Origin: Escherichia phage JES2013
Direction: 5' to 3' (one strand)
DNA: 64,000 nt
Sequence record: KC690136
A program made the position numbers and the translations under genes. The notes beneath the pieces are model-generated. The model was not told where the DNA came from. It saw only the letters and a list, made by a program, of their open reading frames with translations, and searched no databases. Positions 15,193-32,340 of this stretch are shown piece by piece; within the stretch, counting starts at the first letter, position 1, and each line of letters begins with the position of its first letter.

Positions 15193-15981
15193 ATGGGTCG
15201 AGCTAAAGAAACAAAACGCATGCGTGATGAAGCTAGAGAGGCTCGCAAATCTGATCGCCTGCGTAAGGCTGCTGAGAAATTTGCTGACGAAAGAGAGCAC
15301 ACCGCTCCAGCTCTCCGACCAATGAATAAGAAGCAGCAAAAGTATCTTGATTATCTAGGGTCACGTAAGATTATCATTGTAAACGGTGTGTTTGGATCTG
15401 GTAAGACATTCATGGCATCTGCCTATGCAGGTGATCTTCTGCGTAAGAACGAGATTGATAAGATCATTGTTGCACGTCCTTACGTTCAGACAGGAAAGAC
15501 TTCAGGATTTAAACCTGGAAATGCAATGCAGAAACTGTGGCCCTATCTTCGAAGCATGATGGACACGATTTGTCGTCGTGTTGGCAAAGGTGCTTTTGCC
15601 GCAATGCTGGGAGACGGTCAGAACAGCCGTATCGAGATTTGTGAGGTTGAAAGCATTCGTGGTCGTAGTTTCGATGAGCGATGCTTTGTCCTGATTGACG
15701 AGGCACAGCAAACTAACCCTGAAGAAATGTTGTCAATTATCACAAGGATCTCTGATCAGGCCACCCTTGTAATTATGGGCGATAATAGCCAACGTGACAT
15801 CCCTGGTAAATCTGGCCTTGCATGGGTGACGGATTTCTTTACTCGTCATCCAGATCCTGAGGTTGGAATGATCAGCTTTGATAGTCCAGACGATGTTGTT
15901 CGTTCCGGGTTGGGTCGTCAGATTGCACTCAATCTTATTGAGGATCGTGCAAATCATATTTGGACCCCTGTTTCCGAGTAA
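15193..15981 (+). CDS. phoH: PhoH-like ATPase
   Basis: Walker A GVFGSGKT in PhoH context; GGAG RBS. Confidence 0.75.
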   Translation: MGRAKETKRMRDEAREARKSDRLRKAAEKFADEREHTAPALRPMNKKQQKYLDYLGSRKIIIVNGVFGSGKTFMASAYAGDLLRKNEIDKIIVARPYVQTGKTSGFKPGNAMQKLWPYLRSMMDTICRRVGKGAFAAMLGDGQNSRIEICEVESIRGRSFDERCFVLIDEAQQTNPEEMLSIITRISDQATLVIMGDNSQRDIPGKSGLAWVTDFFTRHPDPEVGMISFDSPDDVVRSGLGRQIALNLIEDRANHIWTPVSE

Positions 15982-16025: not shown

Positions 16026-16054
16026 TTGACAAACAGGTAAGATTTAGATATTAT
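16026..16054 (+). promoter_or_regulatory. sigma70-type promoter
   Basis: TTGACA (16026-16031), 17-nt spacer, TATTAT (16049-16054). Confidence 0.6.
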
Positions 16055-16084: not shown

Positions 16085-16396
16085 ATGGCTACAATACAAG
16101 AGAGACTGAATAAAATATACTGCCTGTTTGTCTATAACGGCGAGACAATTTTGGCAAATAAAGGATCCAAGAATGTGTGGATCAAGGACAGGGGTGGTAA
16201 TATAATCAACTTAGCGTTGCTACGTGAGCGCCGACACAGATTCTTTATCGAGTCTCGGATTATTGAAAGCAGCACCTGCTACAGAACAGGCGATAAAGTA
16301 ATTGTTGACAATGATACGTGGTATGTGGTAGACTGGCAATCATTGAGCTGTGATGCTTCTGACAATCGTAAGTATTCCCTAGTGATTGCTAAATAA
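16085..16396 (+). CDS. hypothetical protein
   Basis: AAGGAGAAGGAGA RBS then ATG. Confidence 0.5.
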   Translation: MATIQERLNKIYCLFVYNGETILANKGSKNVWIKDRGGNIINLALLRERRHRFFIESRIIESSTCYRTGDKVIVDNDTWYVVDWQSLSCDASDNRKYSLVIAK

Positions 16397-16456: not shown

Positions 16457-17506
16457 ATGAATTTAACACCTCGCAGCACCATGGTACACGGCATGAAAGA
16501 AAAACAGAACGGTTTCGAACCTATGAGTAATAAAATGTTTGGTATGCCGGGTGGTATTATGGAAACATACAGCTACCCAACACCTGTTGTTGACCACGTT
16601 CTTTATATCGACGATTTGGAAGACTTACAAGATCATATGTCTCGTCTGCAGACGATCCGTATGGCTCAGCCGGAAGAAAGCATTCGGGTGATCATCAATA
16701 GCCCTGGGGGTTGCGTGCACATTGCAATGGCTTATCTGCAGGCATTCCGCGAGTCTCAGGCAAGCGTTGTTGCACATGCTGAAGGGATGTGCTGCTCTGC
16801 TGGAACAATCTTATGGCTTGGTTGTAAAGAACGTACTGTGGCTCCGGACACAGAGTTTATGTTCCACTACTATCAAGGTGGCACTTATGGTAACGGTGTG
16901 AACATGAATACTCAGGTCAGCTACTGGAAAAAACGTTTTGAACGCCTGATCGAAAAATACTACGGTGGGGTGCTGACAGAAGATGAGATCGCATCCATCA
17001 CAGCTGGTGGCGAAGTGTGGTTGGACGGAGAAGAGCTGGCAGCACGCACTGGAGCTATTATTCTGGATGAAGGCAACATACAACGCATCCAGAACGGACA
17101 AAAACCGAAAAAGCTTCTGGCAAAAGGTGATGAAGAAGGCGTGTTAGGTGAAGCAGGTCTTCCGGAGATTCACCAGTGCACATCTTTAGATGAGTTAGTT
17201 CATGCTGTTGAATCTGCAAAAGCGGGTGGTTCGAAAGGTGATGTTCACACTGTGTTCCTGAATCTGCAGATGGAAAGTGGCGAGACCGTCAGAATTGCCC
17301 TGGGTGAGATTACTTCAGAAGATCTGCAGAGATTCTCTGTCGTTGAACTTCAGGATATTCTGTCTCAATTGAAGACTACTCTGAACGGCGGTGAAGAGGT
17401 TAAGGTGAAAGATAAGACGCGCAAGCGTCTGGTGGACAATATTATTAAAACAGCAAAAGAGCTCAATGAAAAAATCCTGGGTGCAGGAATTGTCGAAGAA
17501 GCTTAA
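16457..17506 (+). CDS. ClpP-like serine protease (S14 family) with C-terminal extension
   Basis: INSPGG motif, Ser in CCSAGT, His in MFHYYQGG, aligning with ClpP catalytic residues. Confidence 0.6.
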   Translation: MNLTPRSTMVHGMKEKQNGFEPMSNKMFGMPGGIMETYSYPTPVVDHVLYIDDLEDLQDHMSRLQTIRMAQPEESIRVIINSPGGCVHIAMAYLQAFRESQASVVAHAEGMCCSAGTILWLGCKERTVAPDTEFMFHYYQGGTYGNGVNMNTQVSYWKKRFERLIEKYYGGVLTEDEIASITAGGEVWLDGEELAARTGAIILDEGNIQRIQNGQKPKKLLAKGDEEGVLGEAGLPEIHQCTSLDELVHAVESAKAGGSKGDVHTVFLNLQMESGETVRIALGEITSEDLQRFSVVELQDILSQLKTTLNGGEEVKVKDKTRKRLVDNIIKTAKELNEKILGAGIVEEA

Positions 17507-17557: not shown

Positions 17558-18091
17558 ATGACTTGTGCTAGAAAACCTGATGAACAACGTAACGCCTACG
17601 ATGAGTATGTGACACCGGAGTGGTGTGCAGAAGGGCTGTATGACCTTATTCCGTTCCCAGAAGACTGGACCTACTTAGAGCCTTGCAGGAATAGTGCCTC
17701 AGGTGTGTTCTACTCCCGTATGCCGTTAGGATCTGCATGGGGAGAAATCCAAGAAGGTGTTGACTATCTGAATACAGAATACAACCATGTTGACTGTATT
17801 ATCACCAACCCGCCGTACAGCCTGGCTCGTGAGTTTGTGGACAAGGCGTTGAAAGATGCCGACGTAGTTATTATGCTTTTGCGTCTTAATTTTCTGGAAA
17901 GCAAGGCCAGATTTGAATGGTGGCTTGATAATGCACCTACCACTGTGATCACAATATCTAAGCGCCCGTCATTCCAATCCAATGGTAGAACGGATGGGCA
18001 GGCATATGCATATTTTGTATGGGACAAGAAAAACCGTCTAGACTTGCCGCCATTTATGTGGTTGGCACCACCAGAGGCAGATTTGAAATGA
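17558..18091 (+). CDS. small DNA N6-adenine methyltransferase-like protein
   Basis: Motif IV NPPY (CIITNPPYSLA); 177 aa. Confidence 0.45.
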   Translation: MTCARKPDEQRNAYDEYVTPEWCAEGLYDLIPFPEDWTYLEPCRNSASGVFYSRMPLGSAWGEIQEGVDYLNTEYNHVDCIITNPPYSLAREFVDKALKDADVVIMLLRLNFLESKARFEWWLDNAPTTVITISKRPSFQSNGRTDGQAYAYFVWDKKNRLDLPPFMWLAPPEADLK

Positions 18092-29495: not shown

Positions 29496-30682
29496 CTGAA
29501 GAGGCAAACGTGCATAATTCCTGTGCATCGGAACGTATGAAACCTTGTTCACACTCTCATTTCCAGAGGAGATTTTATGAAGATAGAAATATTTGGTGGA
29601 GCTGACAACACTCGTGGCCTGATTTACCTTGAATTCGATGAATCATACCTACCAGAGGTGTTAAATATAGACTCTGTTGCGGAGGCTTTGGGAGTAAACC
29701 CTAAAGAACTCCACTCTTGTGCTGAGATCGATGGTTGGGAAGAGACCATGAACATTGATTTCAGTGAAGTAGAGGATGAACCGCTGGACTGACACACAAT
29801 TAGCTGCCCGGCTAAAGTGCTGGAAGCACCTATAACACATCTTTCAACTAAATTTCCCACCACAACAATCACTTACCTCCCATACATGACTGTTTGCTTG
29901 TTTAGTGAGCAGTCATGCCTTGACATTCTTGCCTATCCTGATAAAATTAAGTTCTTCTCTTTTCTTTTACCGAGTAATTCGGGTTTTCTGTTCTCTTCGG
30001 TTTGAAGGGGTATGGAGATACACCTGAGTGAACAGGGTGAACAACCGAACATTTGGCTATGGCATTAGCATGGCGAAGCGGACGGGTGACGAAAGAGGGG
30101 CCGGAGGACACCAGTCACTGCCATATGGTATATGGGTGATAACCTGAAGAGTCTGAATAAGTGTTTAAGTACCAGTCAGAGGAAAAGGTGAATGGTAGCC
30201 GAAGGGGGAGGGGGGTTTCTTGTATCTTTAATTTGTATATTATGTATACACTTGTAAACCAATCTCATTTGAATTTGTTTACCACACAAAGTGGATAGAG
30301 ACAAATATTACCTATTAAACTTGAATTATTTATAGAAAATACCACAACACTACTTAAGTCTTTGATTTTACACACAAATCCTGCAGATATTCACCCTCCA
30401 TATTTAACATACTTGTAACATATTCCATACTCTACCTGCCCGATCAATTCACCCAACTACATCCCCATATTTTCCCTGTCTGTACTACCCCTGCCCCGCC
30501 GGGAGTCCCGTCATATCTGGCTTTCCAGCAAATATCACACCCACAAATATCATTGCCTGAAGAGGGTTTCGTCCCATAATACATGCCTTACCTGAAGAGC
30601 GCTTCATATACCCCGTAAATTTTTTAATTGACCCCCTCCCCGCCGCCGGAGGGGTCGGCTTTTCCCACACAGACCTGAAGAG
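29496..30682. repeat. five dispersed copies of 9-mer CCTGAAGAG
   Basis: Exact copies at 29496, 30143, 30556, 30591, 30674. Confidence 0.5.
29577..29792 (+). CDS. small acidic protein
   Basis: GAGGAG RBS; MKIEIFGG start; last gene of the + block. Confidence 0.5.
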   Translation: MKIEIFGGADNTRGLIYLEFDESYLPEVLNIDSVAEALGVNPKELHSCAEIDGWEETMNIDFSEVEDEPLD

Positions 30683-31210
30683 TCAGCCAGAAATATCTGA
30701 ATGGACCCAATTCTGCCCTGTTATGAGCCGTAGCGACTGGAGTGCTGCCAGGCGGACGAAATGGGAATACTTCTCATTCTTATAACAATTCTCAAATATC
30801 GAGGCAGTGAGGCAAATTAATAGGTAAGGCCGTTCACATAGTGGCACAACATTTGCAGTCTATCTGATGTGGTTGAATGAGAATACCTATCATTGTGAGA
30901 ATAGTTATCATTACGGGCAATTTAACATAATACCCATTATGCGCACCACTGGCGATACATACAGGGATTGATAACATGAGTTACTGTTTACGCATATAAC
31001 AATTATATTTCTTATCATTTGTGTGGGATATAGTTAGCAGCCGATAGATTAGATATTGACCTGCGGACTTCTGACCGTCTAGACGTCTAAACGCCCACAC
31101 AACAAGGCTTATACATACATCGCTGAATGTAAACATGGCCGCAAAAATGCTACCATACAAGATTGTAAATTTTTCATGCAGCACTTGACAAAGAGGAGAA
31201 AAACTTGTCT

Positions 31211-31440
31211 GACACTTTAGACATACTGGTGACACAATATGACACTTTAGACTTAATTGACATGCCTGACTGTTTACGCTGTCACTATTCGCGCTATTAC
31301 TATTCACTCCCTTTACTGTTCACGCTCTTACTGTTTACATGCTTAATGGTTTACATGCTTAATAGACTGCATGTCTAATAGTTTACATAGCTAACTGTTC
31401 ACATACTTATCATTTACATGATTGACTGTTTACACAGAGA
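31211..31440. repeat. iteron-like array: GACACTTTAGAC x2, about 8 copies of TGTT(T/C)ACA, 16-bp tandem GTTTACATGCTTAAT
   Basis: Direct repeats read in sequence (31211-31222, 31241-31252; 31273-31435). Confidence 0.55.
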
Positions 31441-31447
31441 TGATAAG

Positions 31448-31731
31448 CCATGACATTCGTTTGCATGACAATAATTAACAAGATAACAATTGACAAGCTA
31501 ACAGCCAACAAGCTGACAATTAACTTGTTTACAATAGATGACATAATATAAAAGCAGGGCAACTATTAGAAGATCTATAGTTGCCTTGCTTGTTATGTCA
31601 TGATTAACTAAATACAAGGCAACTATGATCTGATTAATAGTTTGCAAACAAACTATCACGGGGGTGATGGTTACTGCTTTTATATTATGTCGCGACTCCG
31701 TCGCGCCATGCCATTCGTTTGCATAGTTGCC
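31448..31731. repeat. GGCAACTAT inverted/direct repeats and duplicated GCCATG(A/C)CATTCGTTTGCAT
   Basis: Palindrome GGCAACTAT-N10-ATAGTTGCC (31558-31586); further copies at 31618, 31723; 19-bp repeat at 31448-31466 and 31706-31724. Confidence 0.5.
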
Positions 31732-32340
31732 TTATTGTTACAGATAAAATAATTGTATTGTTAATTATTTCTTATCTTTCTATTAGTCATCTAATGATTC
31801 CAGTCAATATAGTAATGTACAGTAAACATTAGACGACTAAAGATTTATCTGCTTATAATAACTTACCGTGACAATTTCGGACTGTTTACGAAAAATGTTG
31901 GCACCTAAGCTGATTTATGTTATGCAGTTTACACGAATAATTATTTTATGCAGGTATTGACTATTCCATTATTCTATGGTTGGAATAAATACTTAGCAGA
32001 CTATAGAATGGTGAGCGTACGTAAATTCTGAGATCTGGCGGCTATAGTTATACTCGATTTTTCACGTAGAGCACGCTTTTGTGGTTATGTAAGTGTATGA
32101 CTTATAAAGATTTTTAGTTGTTGACAAGACACTGAAGATATGCATCAGGTTAAATTTTGTGCAATAGCTGCATTACGTGCAATTTTGGAAGGAAAAACGG
32201 GTAAAAATAGCCCTGCTACCACACAATGAAAAGTTATGCAATAGTTATTTTACATGTATATTTGTACAGTGTGTGGGGTTGATGGCTCGTCAATTATTCC
32301 ACTTGCCAGGTAGGGCCGTTTATGGTAGGGGGAAGATCAG

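What the first reader, a model, noticed from the sequence alone, without database searches (positions are those of the whole stretch)
16457..17506. ClpP-like protease with long C-terminal extension in the early/DNA-metabolism block
ClpP catalytic Ser/His context (INSPGG, CCSAGT, MFHYYQGG) is followed by about 140 extra residues. The gene lies between phoH and a methyltransferase rather than among head genes, suggesting a role other than prohead maturation.
Basis: partly seen in the sequence, partly recalled or inferred. Interest (0 to 1): 0.45.

Follow-up and report, generated by a model that had tools for sequence, protein, structure and literature searches.

The report
Non-structural ClpP-like protease of rV5-like phage
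This is the already-annotated "ClpP-like protease" gene of an rV5-type E. coli phage: a real ClpP-fold serine protease with an extra tail domain that is almost certainly not the capsid-maturation protease, and belongs to a very common phage gene family whose job nobody has yet worked out.

Summary
ORF 16457-17506 (+) encodes a 349-aa protein. Residues ~45-212 are a ClpP fold with Ser114 and His137 in place and Glu186 at the Asp position. About 140 further residues form a flexible linker and a small clade-specific beta-hairpin/three-helix domain.

The window is a Vequintavirus (rV5-like coliphage). The gene is rV5 gp117, annotated "ClpP ATP-dependent protease" in more than 100 GenBank genomes.

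- The head module lies 31-36 kb away on the other strand and has its own XkdF-type (S78_2) protease next to the portal.
- That protease, not the ClpP-like protein, is reported in virion proteomes of related phages.
- Homologues sit among early and nucleotide-metabolism genes in T5-like, KVP40-like, ICP1, Pakpunavirus, Otagovirus and Barbavirus phages. At least the T5-likes have a proven separate prohead protease.

"ATP-dependent" is unsupported: seven of the eight positions of E. coli ClpP's ClpX/ClpA docking pocket carry polar or small residues.

The function is unknown, and a 2023 T5/BF23 paper says so explicitly. One lead is a PhoH-like ATPase gene just upstream in 9 of 15 lineages sampled.

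This is a known, catalogued family, so novelty is low and the open question is moderate.

The parts
16026..16054 (+). Sigma-70-type promoter-like site (TTGACA-17-TATTAT, 11/12) ahead of the small ORF and the ClpP-like gene. It corresponds to rV5 promoter P121.
   Evidence: Consensus scan. The rV5 annotation has a 'Sigma70-type promoter; P121' at the equivalent place. Function not demonstrated.
16085..16396 (+). 103-aa ORF of unknown function (rV5 gp116 homologue) between phoH and the ClpP-like gene.
   Evidence: phrog_5456, E=5.4e-39, unknown function; no Pfam hit.
16457..17506 (+). ClpP-like serine protease gene (rV5 gp117 homologue), 349 aa plus stop codon.
   Evidence: ORF list; 100% identical to KP869102.1 'clpP'; phrog_5410 full-length E=4.9e-155; Pfam CLP_protease 2.1e-12.
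16457..16588 (+). N-terminal region (res 1-44). Variable up to about res 22, then conserved within the clade (N25, Y40, P41). No confident structure. The model predicts no helix before the first strand, where ClpP has helix A and the axial loop.
   Evidence: AF2 pLDDT <50 for res 1-44; family alignment.
16589..17092 (+). ClpP-fold core (res about 45-212), including the handle helix (res 150-169).
   Evidence: AF2 model with pLDDT mostly 75-89; Foldseek against PDB ClpPs E=3e-10; PDB profile search 8e-13.
16796..16798 (+). Codon of Ser114, the predicted nucleophile. It aligns with E. coli ClpP Ser97.
   Evidence: Invariant in 14/14 sequences, 13 phage lineages plus E. coli ClpP.
16865..16867 (+). 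Codon of His137. It aligns with E. coli ClpP His122.
   Evidence: Invariant in 14/14 sequences.
17012..17014 (+). Codon of Glu186, at the position of E. coli ClpP Asp171 (third triad residue).
   Evidence: D or E in 13 of 14 aligned sequences, Q in Barbavirus. Within the rV5-like superfamily, E or Q.
17093..17248 (+). Variable, mostly disordered charged linker (res 213-264) with one clade-specific helix (res 244-257).
   Evidence: pLDDT <50 for res 223-241 and 258-262; poorly conserved and indel-rich in the family alignment.
17249..17485 (+). C-terminal domain (res about 265-343): beta-hairpin plus three helices, with invariant F293, E297 and R322. The last two helices resemble a helix-extended-loop-helix (Rho-N/SAP-like) pair, tentatively.
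15193..15981 (+). PhoH-like P-loop ATPase gene, a recurrent upstream neighbour of this protease family.
   Evidence: Pfam PhoH 3.6e-47. PhoH lies upstream on the same strand in 9 of 15 lineages sampled.
17558..18091 (+). 177-aa NPPY-motif DNA methyltransferase-like ORF immediately downstream.
   Evidence: phrog_799 'DNA methyltransferase' 5.1e-67; Pfam EcoRI_methylase and Dam hits below cutoff; the sequence shows ITNPPY.

Best explanation
The gene encodes a non-structural ClpP-fold serine peptidase with a Ser114-His137-Glu186 triad. It belongs to a large family found in big virulent phages (PHROG 5410/1827, usually labelled 'ATP-dependent Clp protease').

Inferred: it is transcribed by host RNA polymerase from a sigma-70-type promoter together with the nucleotide-metabolism genes (RNR, NrdDG, PhoH, methyltransferase). 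It acts in the infected cell's cytoplasm, not in the prohead. Head maturation in this phage is done by the XkdF-type S78_2 protease encoded next to the portal.

The retained handle helix suggests it still forms ClpP-like rings (inferred, not tested). The hydrophobic pocket that cellular ClpP uses to dock ClpX/ClpA is replaced by polar or small residues, so it probably does not work as a canonical ATP-dependent ClpXP/ClpAP core.

The extra ~140 residues are a flexible linker plus a small domain specific to rV5-like phages. They most plausibly act as a targeting or adaptor module for a partner protein or nucleic acid (inferred). The substrates are unknown.
For: Shown by tools:
- ClpP fold and homology.
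- Ser and His invariant and an acidic third residue in 13/14 sequences across 13 phage lineages plus E. coli ClpP.
- The head module with its own Peptidase_S78_2 protease lies 31-36 kb away on the other strand in the same genome.
- Best family match is phrog_5410 'ATP-dependent protease' (4.9e-155, full length) and phrog_1827 (2.6e-40), far above any head-maturation PHROG (<=8.7e-22).
- Homologues lie in early or DNA-metabolism contexts in ICP1, KVP40-like, T5-like, Pakpunavirus, Otagovirus, Barbavirus, Certrevirus and several Vibrio phages, never beside portal or MCP.
- The family is seen in 972-1435 phage records.
- A sigma-70-like promoter lies upstream.
- Docking-pocket positions Y60/Y62/F82/I90/M92/F112/L114/L189 of E. 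coli ClpP align to R77/I79/E99/H107/E109/T127/A129/Q215.

From the literature:
- Virion MS of the Vequintavirinae phages CB7 (PMC7344957) and W70 (PMC11370258) lists the 21-kDa head-module protease and no Clp entry.
- The rV5 virion MS table of 19 proteins has no 38.5-kDa entry.
Against: - No experiment addresses this protein.
- The protease domain scores higher against NCBIfam 'head maturation protease, ClpP-related' (NF045542, 2e-16, 60 bits, but cutoff 120) than against cellular ClpP models (5e-10), so it is evolutionarily close to head proteases.
- The BF23 homologue was detected at low intensity in purified virions.
- Expression timing is inferred from promoter type and neighbours only.
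- Ring assembly, activity and loss of ClpX/ClpA docking are inferred from a monomer model of moderate confidence (pLDDT 70) and from alignment. The list of pocket residues comes from my own knowledge of E. coli ClpP; only the residue letters at those positions were checked.
- The XkdF family's own protease role is 'putative' in Pfam.
- I did not check that W70 encodes a ClpP-like homologue, and for CB7 it is inferred only from the same-genus phage phiTE, so their negative MS evidence is weaker than it looks.
Confidence: 0.62

Rival explanations
1. It is the real head-maturation protease, or a protease-scaffold fusion like lambda gpC/Nu3, merely encoded far from the head genes. The C-terminal extension would be the capsid-targeting or scaffolding part.
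For: The best NCBIfam hits are ClpP-related head maturation protease (2e-16) and ClpP-like prohead protease/MCP fusion (5e-14). There are PHROG hits to several head-maturation protease families. A ClpP-like domain followed by a helical extension is the usual layout of such fusions (general knowledge of lambda gpC/Nu3). The MCP is lambda-E-like. The BF23 homologue is detectable in virions.
Against: Both NCBIfam hits are far below their cutoffs (60 vs 120; 52 vs 475). The head module already has an S78_2 protease next to the portal, which is the protease reported in CB7 and W70 virions. The ClpP-like protein is absent from the rV5, CB7 and W70 virion lists. Family members coexist with the distinct prohead protease of T5-likes. 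KVP40-like T4-type phages also carry a family member, and T4-type phages normally encode a gp21 prohead protease (general knowledge, not checked here). The gene sits behind a sigma-70-type promoter among DNA-metabolism genes on the opposite strand from the late genes. The extension is not conserved across the family, with total lengths of 182-349 aa.
Confidence: 0.1
2. It is a phage-encoded substitute or extra proteolytic core for the host AAA+ unfoldases ClpX/ClpA, as the database name 'ATP-dependent Clp protease proteolytic subunit' implies. It would redirect host ATP-dependent proteolysis.
For: ClpP fold with the handle region retained and the catalytic residues conserved. The annotation is used in most GenBank records.
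Against: Seven of eight docking-pocket positions are polar or small, and E99, H107 and E109 are invariant within the rV5-like group. No helix is predicted N-terminal to the first strand, where ClpP has helix A and its axial loop (low confidence). The TIGR00493 clpP equivalog scores 33 bits against a cutoff of 308. The name is an annotation carried over from Pfam similarity, not from an experiment.
Confidence: 0.07
3. It works together with the neighbouring PhoH-like ATPase, either as a two-component phage-specific ATP-dependent degradation machine or in a common RNA/protein turnover pathway. The C-terminal domain would mediate the contact or bind nucleic acid.
For: PhoH lies upstream on the same strand within 3.5 kb in 9 of 15 lineages sampled: Vequintavirus, Certrevirus, ICP1, two other Vibrio phage groups (with PIN-PhoH fusions), Otagovirus (8-nt gene overlap), Barbavirus (54-nt gap), an Acinetobacter phage and IMG/VR contigs L027/L028. 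T5-like and KVP40-like lineages without adjacency still carry PhoH.
Against: In T5-like and KVP40-like phages the two genes are about 23-150 kb apart. PhoH occurs in many phages without this protease, in 2864 records including cyanophages. Both genes are typical cargo of large virulent phages and of the nucleotide-metabolism module, so linkage may reflect module structure or shared ancestry. PhoH is not an AAA+ unfoldase, and its studied relatives act on RNA (general knowledge). No interaction test was possible.
Confidence: 0.1

Closest known systems
Cellular ClpP (MEROPS S14), e.g. E. coli ClpP (PDB 1tyf, 2fzs)
   Same: Same fold over about 165-175 residues (Foldseek E about 1e-9, TM about 0.7). 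The INSPGG oxyanion region, Ser and His are at homologous positions, and a handle helix is present.
   Different: About 20% identity. Glu replaces the triad Asp. The AAA+ docking-pocket residues are replaced by polar or small ones. No helix A or axial loop is predicted N-terminal to the core. There is a ~140-aa C-terminal extension. The clpP equivalog HMM scores far below cutoff (33 vs 308 bits).
ClpP-related phage head-maturation proteases (NCBIfam NF045542; lambda gpC-type protease-scaffold fusions)
   Same: This is the closest curated HMM (2e-16). It shares the ClpP-like domain followed by a non-catalytic C-terminal region.
   Different: Its score is half the family cutoff. The gene is not in the head module, it is not the only protease in the genome, and the protein was not seen in Vequintavirinae virion proteomes.
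'Clp protease' of T5-like phages (BF23 ORF45 and its Demerecviridae homologues)
   Same: Same family. rV5-like genomes are hit by the T5-like KEY protein at E about 1e-14, 27-28% identity. Both are non-head genes in the early region, they coexist with a separate prohead protease, and the function is stated as unknown.
   Different: The T5-like proteins are about 200-290 aa without the rV5-type C-terminal domain. They sit between dNMP kinase and holin/endolysin rather than next to PhoH. The BF23 protein was detected at low level in virions. I did not align BF23 ORF45 itself; membership is inferred from other Tequintavirus-type records labelled 'Clp-like protease'.
Vibrio phage ICP1 ORF211 'ClpP ATP-dependent protease subunit' (326 aa)
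   Same: 36% identity over the protease core. It also has a long C-terminal extension and the same RNR / PhoH / small ORFs / ClpP-like / ligase neighbourhood.
   Different: Its extension is not detectably homologous (hhalign probability 0.3%), although by eye both end in a similar helix-loop-helix pattern. It has Asp rather than Glu at the third triad position.
XkdF-type phage protease (Pfam PF14550 Peptidase_S78_2), rV5 gp063
   Same: It is the other predicted serine protease of the same phage.
   Different: It has an unrelated (HK97-protease-like) fold family, is encoded directly after the portal, and its homologues are found in the CB7 and W70 virions. It is the likely true prohead protease.

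Membership tests
ClpP / MEROPS S14 (canonical ATP-dependent Clp protease proteolytic subunit) | ClpP alpha/beta fold with handle region | tested here: met
   AF2 model (pLDDT 70 overall, 75-89 in the core) matches solved ClpPs: Foldseek E=3e-10, TM(target) 0.65-0.73. Pfam CLP_protease scores 47.7 bits, above the 20.2 cutoff, but covers only profile positions 32-143 of 182.
ClpP / MEROPS S14 (canonical ATP-dependent Clp protease proteolytic subunit) | Ser-His-Asp catalytic triad at homologous positions | tested here: inconclusive
   Ser114 and His137 are invariant. The Asp171 position is Glu186 here, D/E in 13 of 14 lineages and Q in some. This is a conservative change, but activity was not tested.
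ClpP / MEROPS S14 (canonical ATP-dependent Clp protease proteolytic subunit) | Hydrophobic pocket that docks the IGF/LGF loops of ClpX/ClpA (E. coli Y60, Y62, F82, I90, M92, F112, L114, L189; list from my own knowledge) | tested here: not met
   The aligned residues are R77, I79, E99, H107, E109, T127, A129 and Q215, so 7 of 8 are polar or small. E99, H107 and E109 are invariant in the rV5-like group.
ClpP / MEROPS S14 (canonical ATP-dependent Clp protease proteolytic subunit) | Equivalog-level HMM score (TIGR00493 clpP) | tested here: not met
   33.2 bits against a cutoff of 308.6.
ClpP / MEROPS S14 (canonical ATP-dependent Clp protease proteolytic subunit) | Heptameric rings stacked into a tetradecamer; ATP-dependent degradation with an AAA+ partner | not testable with these tools
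   Only monomer prediction was available. No AAA+ unfoldase gene lies nearby.
ClpP-related phage head-maturation protease (NCBIfam NF045542; lambda gpC-like) | HMM score above the family cutoff | tested here: not met
   60.4 bits against a cutoff of 120, although it is the best NCBIfam hit.
ClpP-related phage head-maturation protease (NCBIfam NF045542; lambda gpC-like) | Encoded in the head module between or next to portal and major capsid protein | tested here: not met
   The head module is 31-36 kb away on the opposite strand in KP869102.1 and NC_011041. The same holds for homologues in at least 14 other lineages.
ClpP-related phage head-maturation protease (NCBIfam NF045542; lambda gpC-like) | It is the phage's prohead protease, with no other candidate present | tested here: not met
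   A Peptidase_S78_2 (XkdF) protein is encoded right after the portal, E=1.1e-17 and 8.7e-18, and homologues are reported in CB7 and W70 virions.
ClpP-related phage head-maturation protease (NCBIfam NF045542; lambda gpC-like) | Present in proheads or virions; cleaves scaffold or capsid protein | not testable with these tools
   Literature only. It is absent from the rV5, CB7 and W70 virion MS lists. The BF23 homologue is weakly present in virions.
Phage 'ATP-dependent protease' families PHROG 5410 / 1827 (non-structural ClpP-like proteins of large virulent phages) | Full-length match to the family profile | tested here: met
   phrog_5410 E=4.9e-155, residues 24-345 on profile positions 4-322 of 323; phrog_1827 E=2.6e-40 over the core. 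Forty-one close and 7674 distant cluster representatives.
HeH / Rho-N / SAP-like helix-extended-loop-helix motif (C-terminal domain only) | Significant sequence or fold match to a HeH-type domain | tested here: inconclusive

The most novel reading that the evidence does not exclude
The PhoH-like ATPase and the ClpP-like peptidase, neighbours in 9 of 15 phage lineages sampled and overlapping in Otagovirus, form a phage-specific functional pair. This would be a previously unrecognised ATP-driven degradation or RNA-protein turnover machine acting early in infection. The lineage-specific C-terminal domains, possibly HeH-like, would serve as the coupling or nucleic-acid-binding element. It would give a function both to the long-enigmatic phage PhoH marker gene and to the 'Clp protease' of T5, ICP1 and rV5-type phages.
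Probability: 0.1. Interest if true: 0.7.

Novelty: already known. Interest (0 to 1): 0.3.

Why it matters
The gene itself is ordinary database content. It is 100% identical to a deposited genome, annotated since the rV5 record, and covered by two PHROG families.

What remains of value is a clarification and an open question. The clarification is that the protein should not be read as the prohead protease, nor as a true ATP-dependent ClpP subunit. The RefSeq label of the real head-module protease (gp063, 'DNA methyltransferase') also looks wrong.

The open question is what a conserved, catalytically intact ClpP-fold protease does in the early or nucleotide-metabolism programme of many model and therapeutic phages (T5-likes, ICP1, rV5-likes, Pakpunavirus, KVP40-likes). 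Answering it could reveal a host-takeover or anti-host activity. The recurrent PhoH linkage offers a testable starting point.

Tried and rejected
1. Identity of the C-terminal ~140 aa.
- Pfam and NCBIfam at permissive E-values gave only noise (MpsC 0.0016-0.0057, below cutoff).
- The PDB sequence profile gave nothing below E=0.06.
- The only BFVD hit at E<=0.001 is an unnamed 303-aa viral protein, probably a family member.
- hhalign against the ICP1 extension found no homology, and against phiTE only a weak match (E=0.0011, probability 21%).
- The HeH/Rho-N resemblance is kept only as a lead.

2. The AFDB50 fold library was not available.

3. Literature search for a function of phage non-head ClpP-like proteins used nine full-text searches. 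The only relevant result was the BF23 statement that the function is unknown. The rV5 paper does not discuss the gene at all.

4. Defence or anti-defence link: there was no PADLOC match.

5. The IMG/VR relatives at 25-32% identity (L029-L088) are a mixed lot. L049, checked here, is a near-canonical full-length ClpP (Pfam 106 bits) next to GTP cyclohydrolase I and a phosphoribosyltransferase. L029 looks like an ordinary head-module protease by ORF sizes only. None has PhoH within 10 kb. I treated them as outside the narrow family rather than as counter-examples.

6. Lambda Nu3-style internal start for the extension, considered and rejected. By reading the sequence, the only Met in the extension is M272, inside the beta-hairpin, so this was not pursued.

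Full report
**What is there.** The window carries an ORF at 16457-17506 on the + strand. It has an ATG start preceded by AAGGA six bases upstream and encodes 349 aa. A 4-kb stretch around the gene is 100% identical to E. coli O157 typing phage 4 (KP869102.1) and 96-99% identical to many rV5-like coliphages of the genus Vequintavirus. In those records the gene is annotated 'ClpP ATP-dependent protease subunit' or 'ClpP-like protease'. It is rV5 gp117 (ORF122).

**Is it ClpP-like?** Yes, well beyond chance.
- Pfam CLP_protease gives E=2.1e-12 (47.7 bits, cutoff 20.2) over residues 59-168.
- A profile of 14 family members hits solved ClpP chains at E=8e-13.
- An AlphaFold2 model (mean pLDDT 70; 75-89 in the core) superposes on solved ClpPs with Foldseek E=3e-10 and TM(target) about 0.7 over 165-175 residues, including the long handle helix.
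- In an alignment of 13 phage lineages plus E. coli ClpP, Ser114 and His137 are invariant. They fall on E. coli Ser97 and His122.
- The Asp171 position is Glu186 here, and D or E in 13 of 14 sequences.
It reproduced all the expected residue letters at the textbook positions, which supports the numbering.

**The extension.** The ClpP core ends around residue 200-212.
- Residues 213-264 are a variable, charged, largely disordered linker.
- Residues ~265-343 form a small beta-hairpin plus three-helix domain (domain-only model pLDDT 77, pTM 0.67). F293, E297 and R322 are invariant across the rV5-like superfamily.
- No curated family, solved structure or viral model outside the family matches this domain significantly.
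- Across the wider family, total lengths range from 182 to 349 aa and the extensions are not alignable. For example, the ICP1 protein is 326 aa but hhalign gives probability 0.3% against the rV5-type domain.

**Is it the prohead protease?** The evidence says no.
- *Position.* In rV5 and in the genome identical to the window, the head module runs terminase, portal (Pfam Portal_Mu), a small protein, a 325-aa protein, decoration protein, and major capsid protein (Phage_cap_E). It lies 31-36 kb from gp117 on the opposite strand.
- *A second protease.* The small protein right after the portal matches Pfam Peptidase_S78_2, the XkdF-type phage serine protease, at E about 1e-17.
- *Virion proteomes.* Published virion proteomes of two other Vequintavirinae, CB7 (PMC7344957) and W70 (PMC11370258), list this 21-kDa head-module protease and no Clp entry. 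I did not verify that W70 encodes a ClpP-like homologue. For CB7 it is inferred from the same-genus phage phiTE. The rV5 shotgun table of 19 virion proteins contains no 38.5-kDa entry.
- *Family scores.* The protein matches PHROG 5410 full length (4.9e-155) and PHROG 1827 (2.6e-40), both labelled 'ATP-dependent protease'. Matches to head-maturation PHROGs are much weaker.
- *A caveat.* The best NCBIfam model is the ClpP-related head-maturation protease (2e-16). It scores only half its cutoff, though better than any cellular ClpP model. The domain is therefore evolutionarily close to head proteases, but membership is not met.

**The family elsewhere.**
- A tblastn of the core finds 972 phage records, and the T5-like member finds 1435.
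- A full HMM scan of 1.8 billion representatives gives 1790 clusters below 1e-10.
- I inspected annotated contexts in 14 further lineages. None is next to portal or capsid genes.
  - ICP1 and related Vibrio phages: RNR, PhoH and ligase nearby.
  - KVP40-like phage: between dihydrofolate reductase and a DNA repair protein.
  - T5-like phages: after dNMP kinase in three of the four examined, and before the lysis genes in all four (holin/endolysin, or lysozyme in VCPH).
  - Pakpunavirus and Otagovirus: dCMP deaminase and ligase nearby.
  - Also Barbavirus, an Acinetobacter phage and Certrevirus.
- T5-likes have an experimentally established separate prohead protease. [quoted passage not shown]
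- Nine full-text searches found no functional study of this family.

**How it probably works.**
- *Shown:* ClpP fold, conserved Ser and His with an acidic third residue, non-head location, and a near-consensus sigma-70-type promoter at 16026-16054 that matches rV5's annotated P121.
- *Inferred:* the protein is made with the nucleotide-metabolism genes by host RNA polymerase. It is an active peptidase that may still form rings through the retained handle, and it acts on cytoplasmic targets.
- *ATP dependence.* The 'ATP-dependent' label is not supported. The eight positions that form the ClpX/ClpA docking pocket in E. coli ClpP (list from my own knowledge) align to R77, I79, E99, H107, E109, T127, A129 and Q215. 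E99, H107 and E109 are invariant in the rV5-like group. No helix is predicted N-terminal to the first strand, where ClpP has helix A and its axial loop, though this region has low confidence. No AAA+ unfoldase gene is nearby.
- *C-terminal domain.* It is under conservation within the clade and is best read as a targeting or adaptor module. Its ligand is unknown.

**A lead noticed on the way.** A PhoH-like ATPase gene lies upstream on the same strand in 9 of 15 lineages sampled:

| Lineage | Arrangement |
|---|---|
| This phage (Vequintavirus) | one small ORF between |
| Certrevirus | 3.4 kb upstream |
| ICP1 | two ORFs between |
| Two other Vibrio phage groups | 466-aa PhoH gene upstream, confirmed as a PIN-PhoH fusion in one |
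| Otagovirus | 8-nt overlap |
| Barbavirus | 54-nt gap |
| An Acinetobacter phage | four small ORFs between |
| IMG/VR contigs L027/L028 | about 2 kb upstream |

Sources.
- T5-like and KVP40-like phages carry both genes but about 23-150 kb apart.
- PhoH is also present in many phages that lack this protease: 2864 records, including cyanophages.
- The linkage may reflect shared module architecture rather than function. I rate a functional pairing at about 10%.

**Verdict.** The gene is nevertheless already known and catalogued. The only new content here is negative: it is not the head protease, and probably not a ClpXP-type core. There is also the PhoH neighbourhood lead. Interest is modest.

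Noticed in passing
window 15193-15981 and 16457-17506; loci L004, L008, L027, L028, L089, L090, L091, L092, L094: A PhoH-like ATPase gene lies just upstream, on the same strand, of the ClpP-like gene in 9 of 15 phage lineages sampled. In Otagovirus the two genes overlap by 8 nt, and in one Vibrio phage group it is a confirmed PIN-PhoH fusion (a second group has the same 466-aa gene). T5-like and KVP40-like phages have both genes but far apart.
   Followed up: partly
L002:5883-6455 (-) = rV5 gp063; L093:7210-7629 (-): The RefSeq product name for rV5 gp063 is 'DNA methyltransferase' (as is the PHROG 1530 label). However, the protein matches Pfam Peptidase_S78_2 (XkdF-type phage protease) at E about 1e-17 and sits directly after the portal. 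It is probably the prohead protease and is mis-named.
   Followed up: partly
window about 30000-32300, especially 30983-31889: This is a gene-poor stretch where the + strand and - strand gene blocks converge (an unannotated 2.6-kb gap in rV5, 104.0-106.6 kb). All five exact copies of ACTGTTTAC in the 64-kb window cluster here, along with 41-nt direct repeats and several inverted repeats (for example a perfect 18-nt pair at 31540-31557 / 31674-31691). It looks iteron-like, possibly an origin or regulatory region.
   Followed up: partly
search hits H7-H9, H15, H16, H24, H25 (GenBank MG0656xx): About 19 records named 'Campylobacter phage' with host C. jejuni are 97% or more identical to rV5-like coliphages over this region. 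This suggests mislabelled or contaminant assemblies.
   Followed up: no
window 17558-18091; L091:4750-5562; L095:2615-3370: A DNA adenine methyltransferase-type gene is adjacent to the ClpP-like gene in three unrelated lineages: downstream here and in Barbavirus, and upstream in Vibrio phage 1.161.O.
   Followed up: no
L005, L009, L096, L097 (T5-like Demerecviridae): In T5-like phages the family member sits immediately upstream of the lysis genes. In Vibrio phage VCPH it overlaps the lysozyme gene by 8 nt. This is a different conserved neighbourhood from the PhoH one.
   Followed up: no
window 16751-16786 (residues 99-110): E99, H107, A108, E109 and G110 (the 'HAEG' strand before the catalytic Ser) are invariant in the rV5-like group. 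They occupy positions that are hydrophobic docking-pocket residues in E. coli ClpP. The reason for such strict conservation of charged residues there is unexplained.
   Followed up: no
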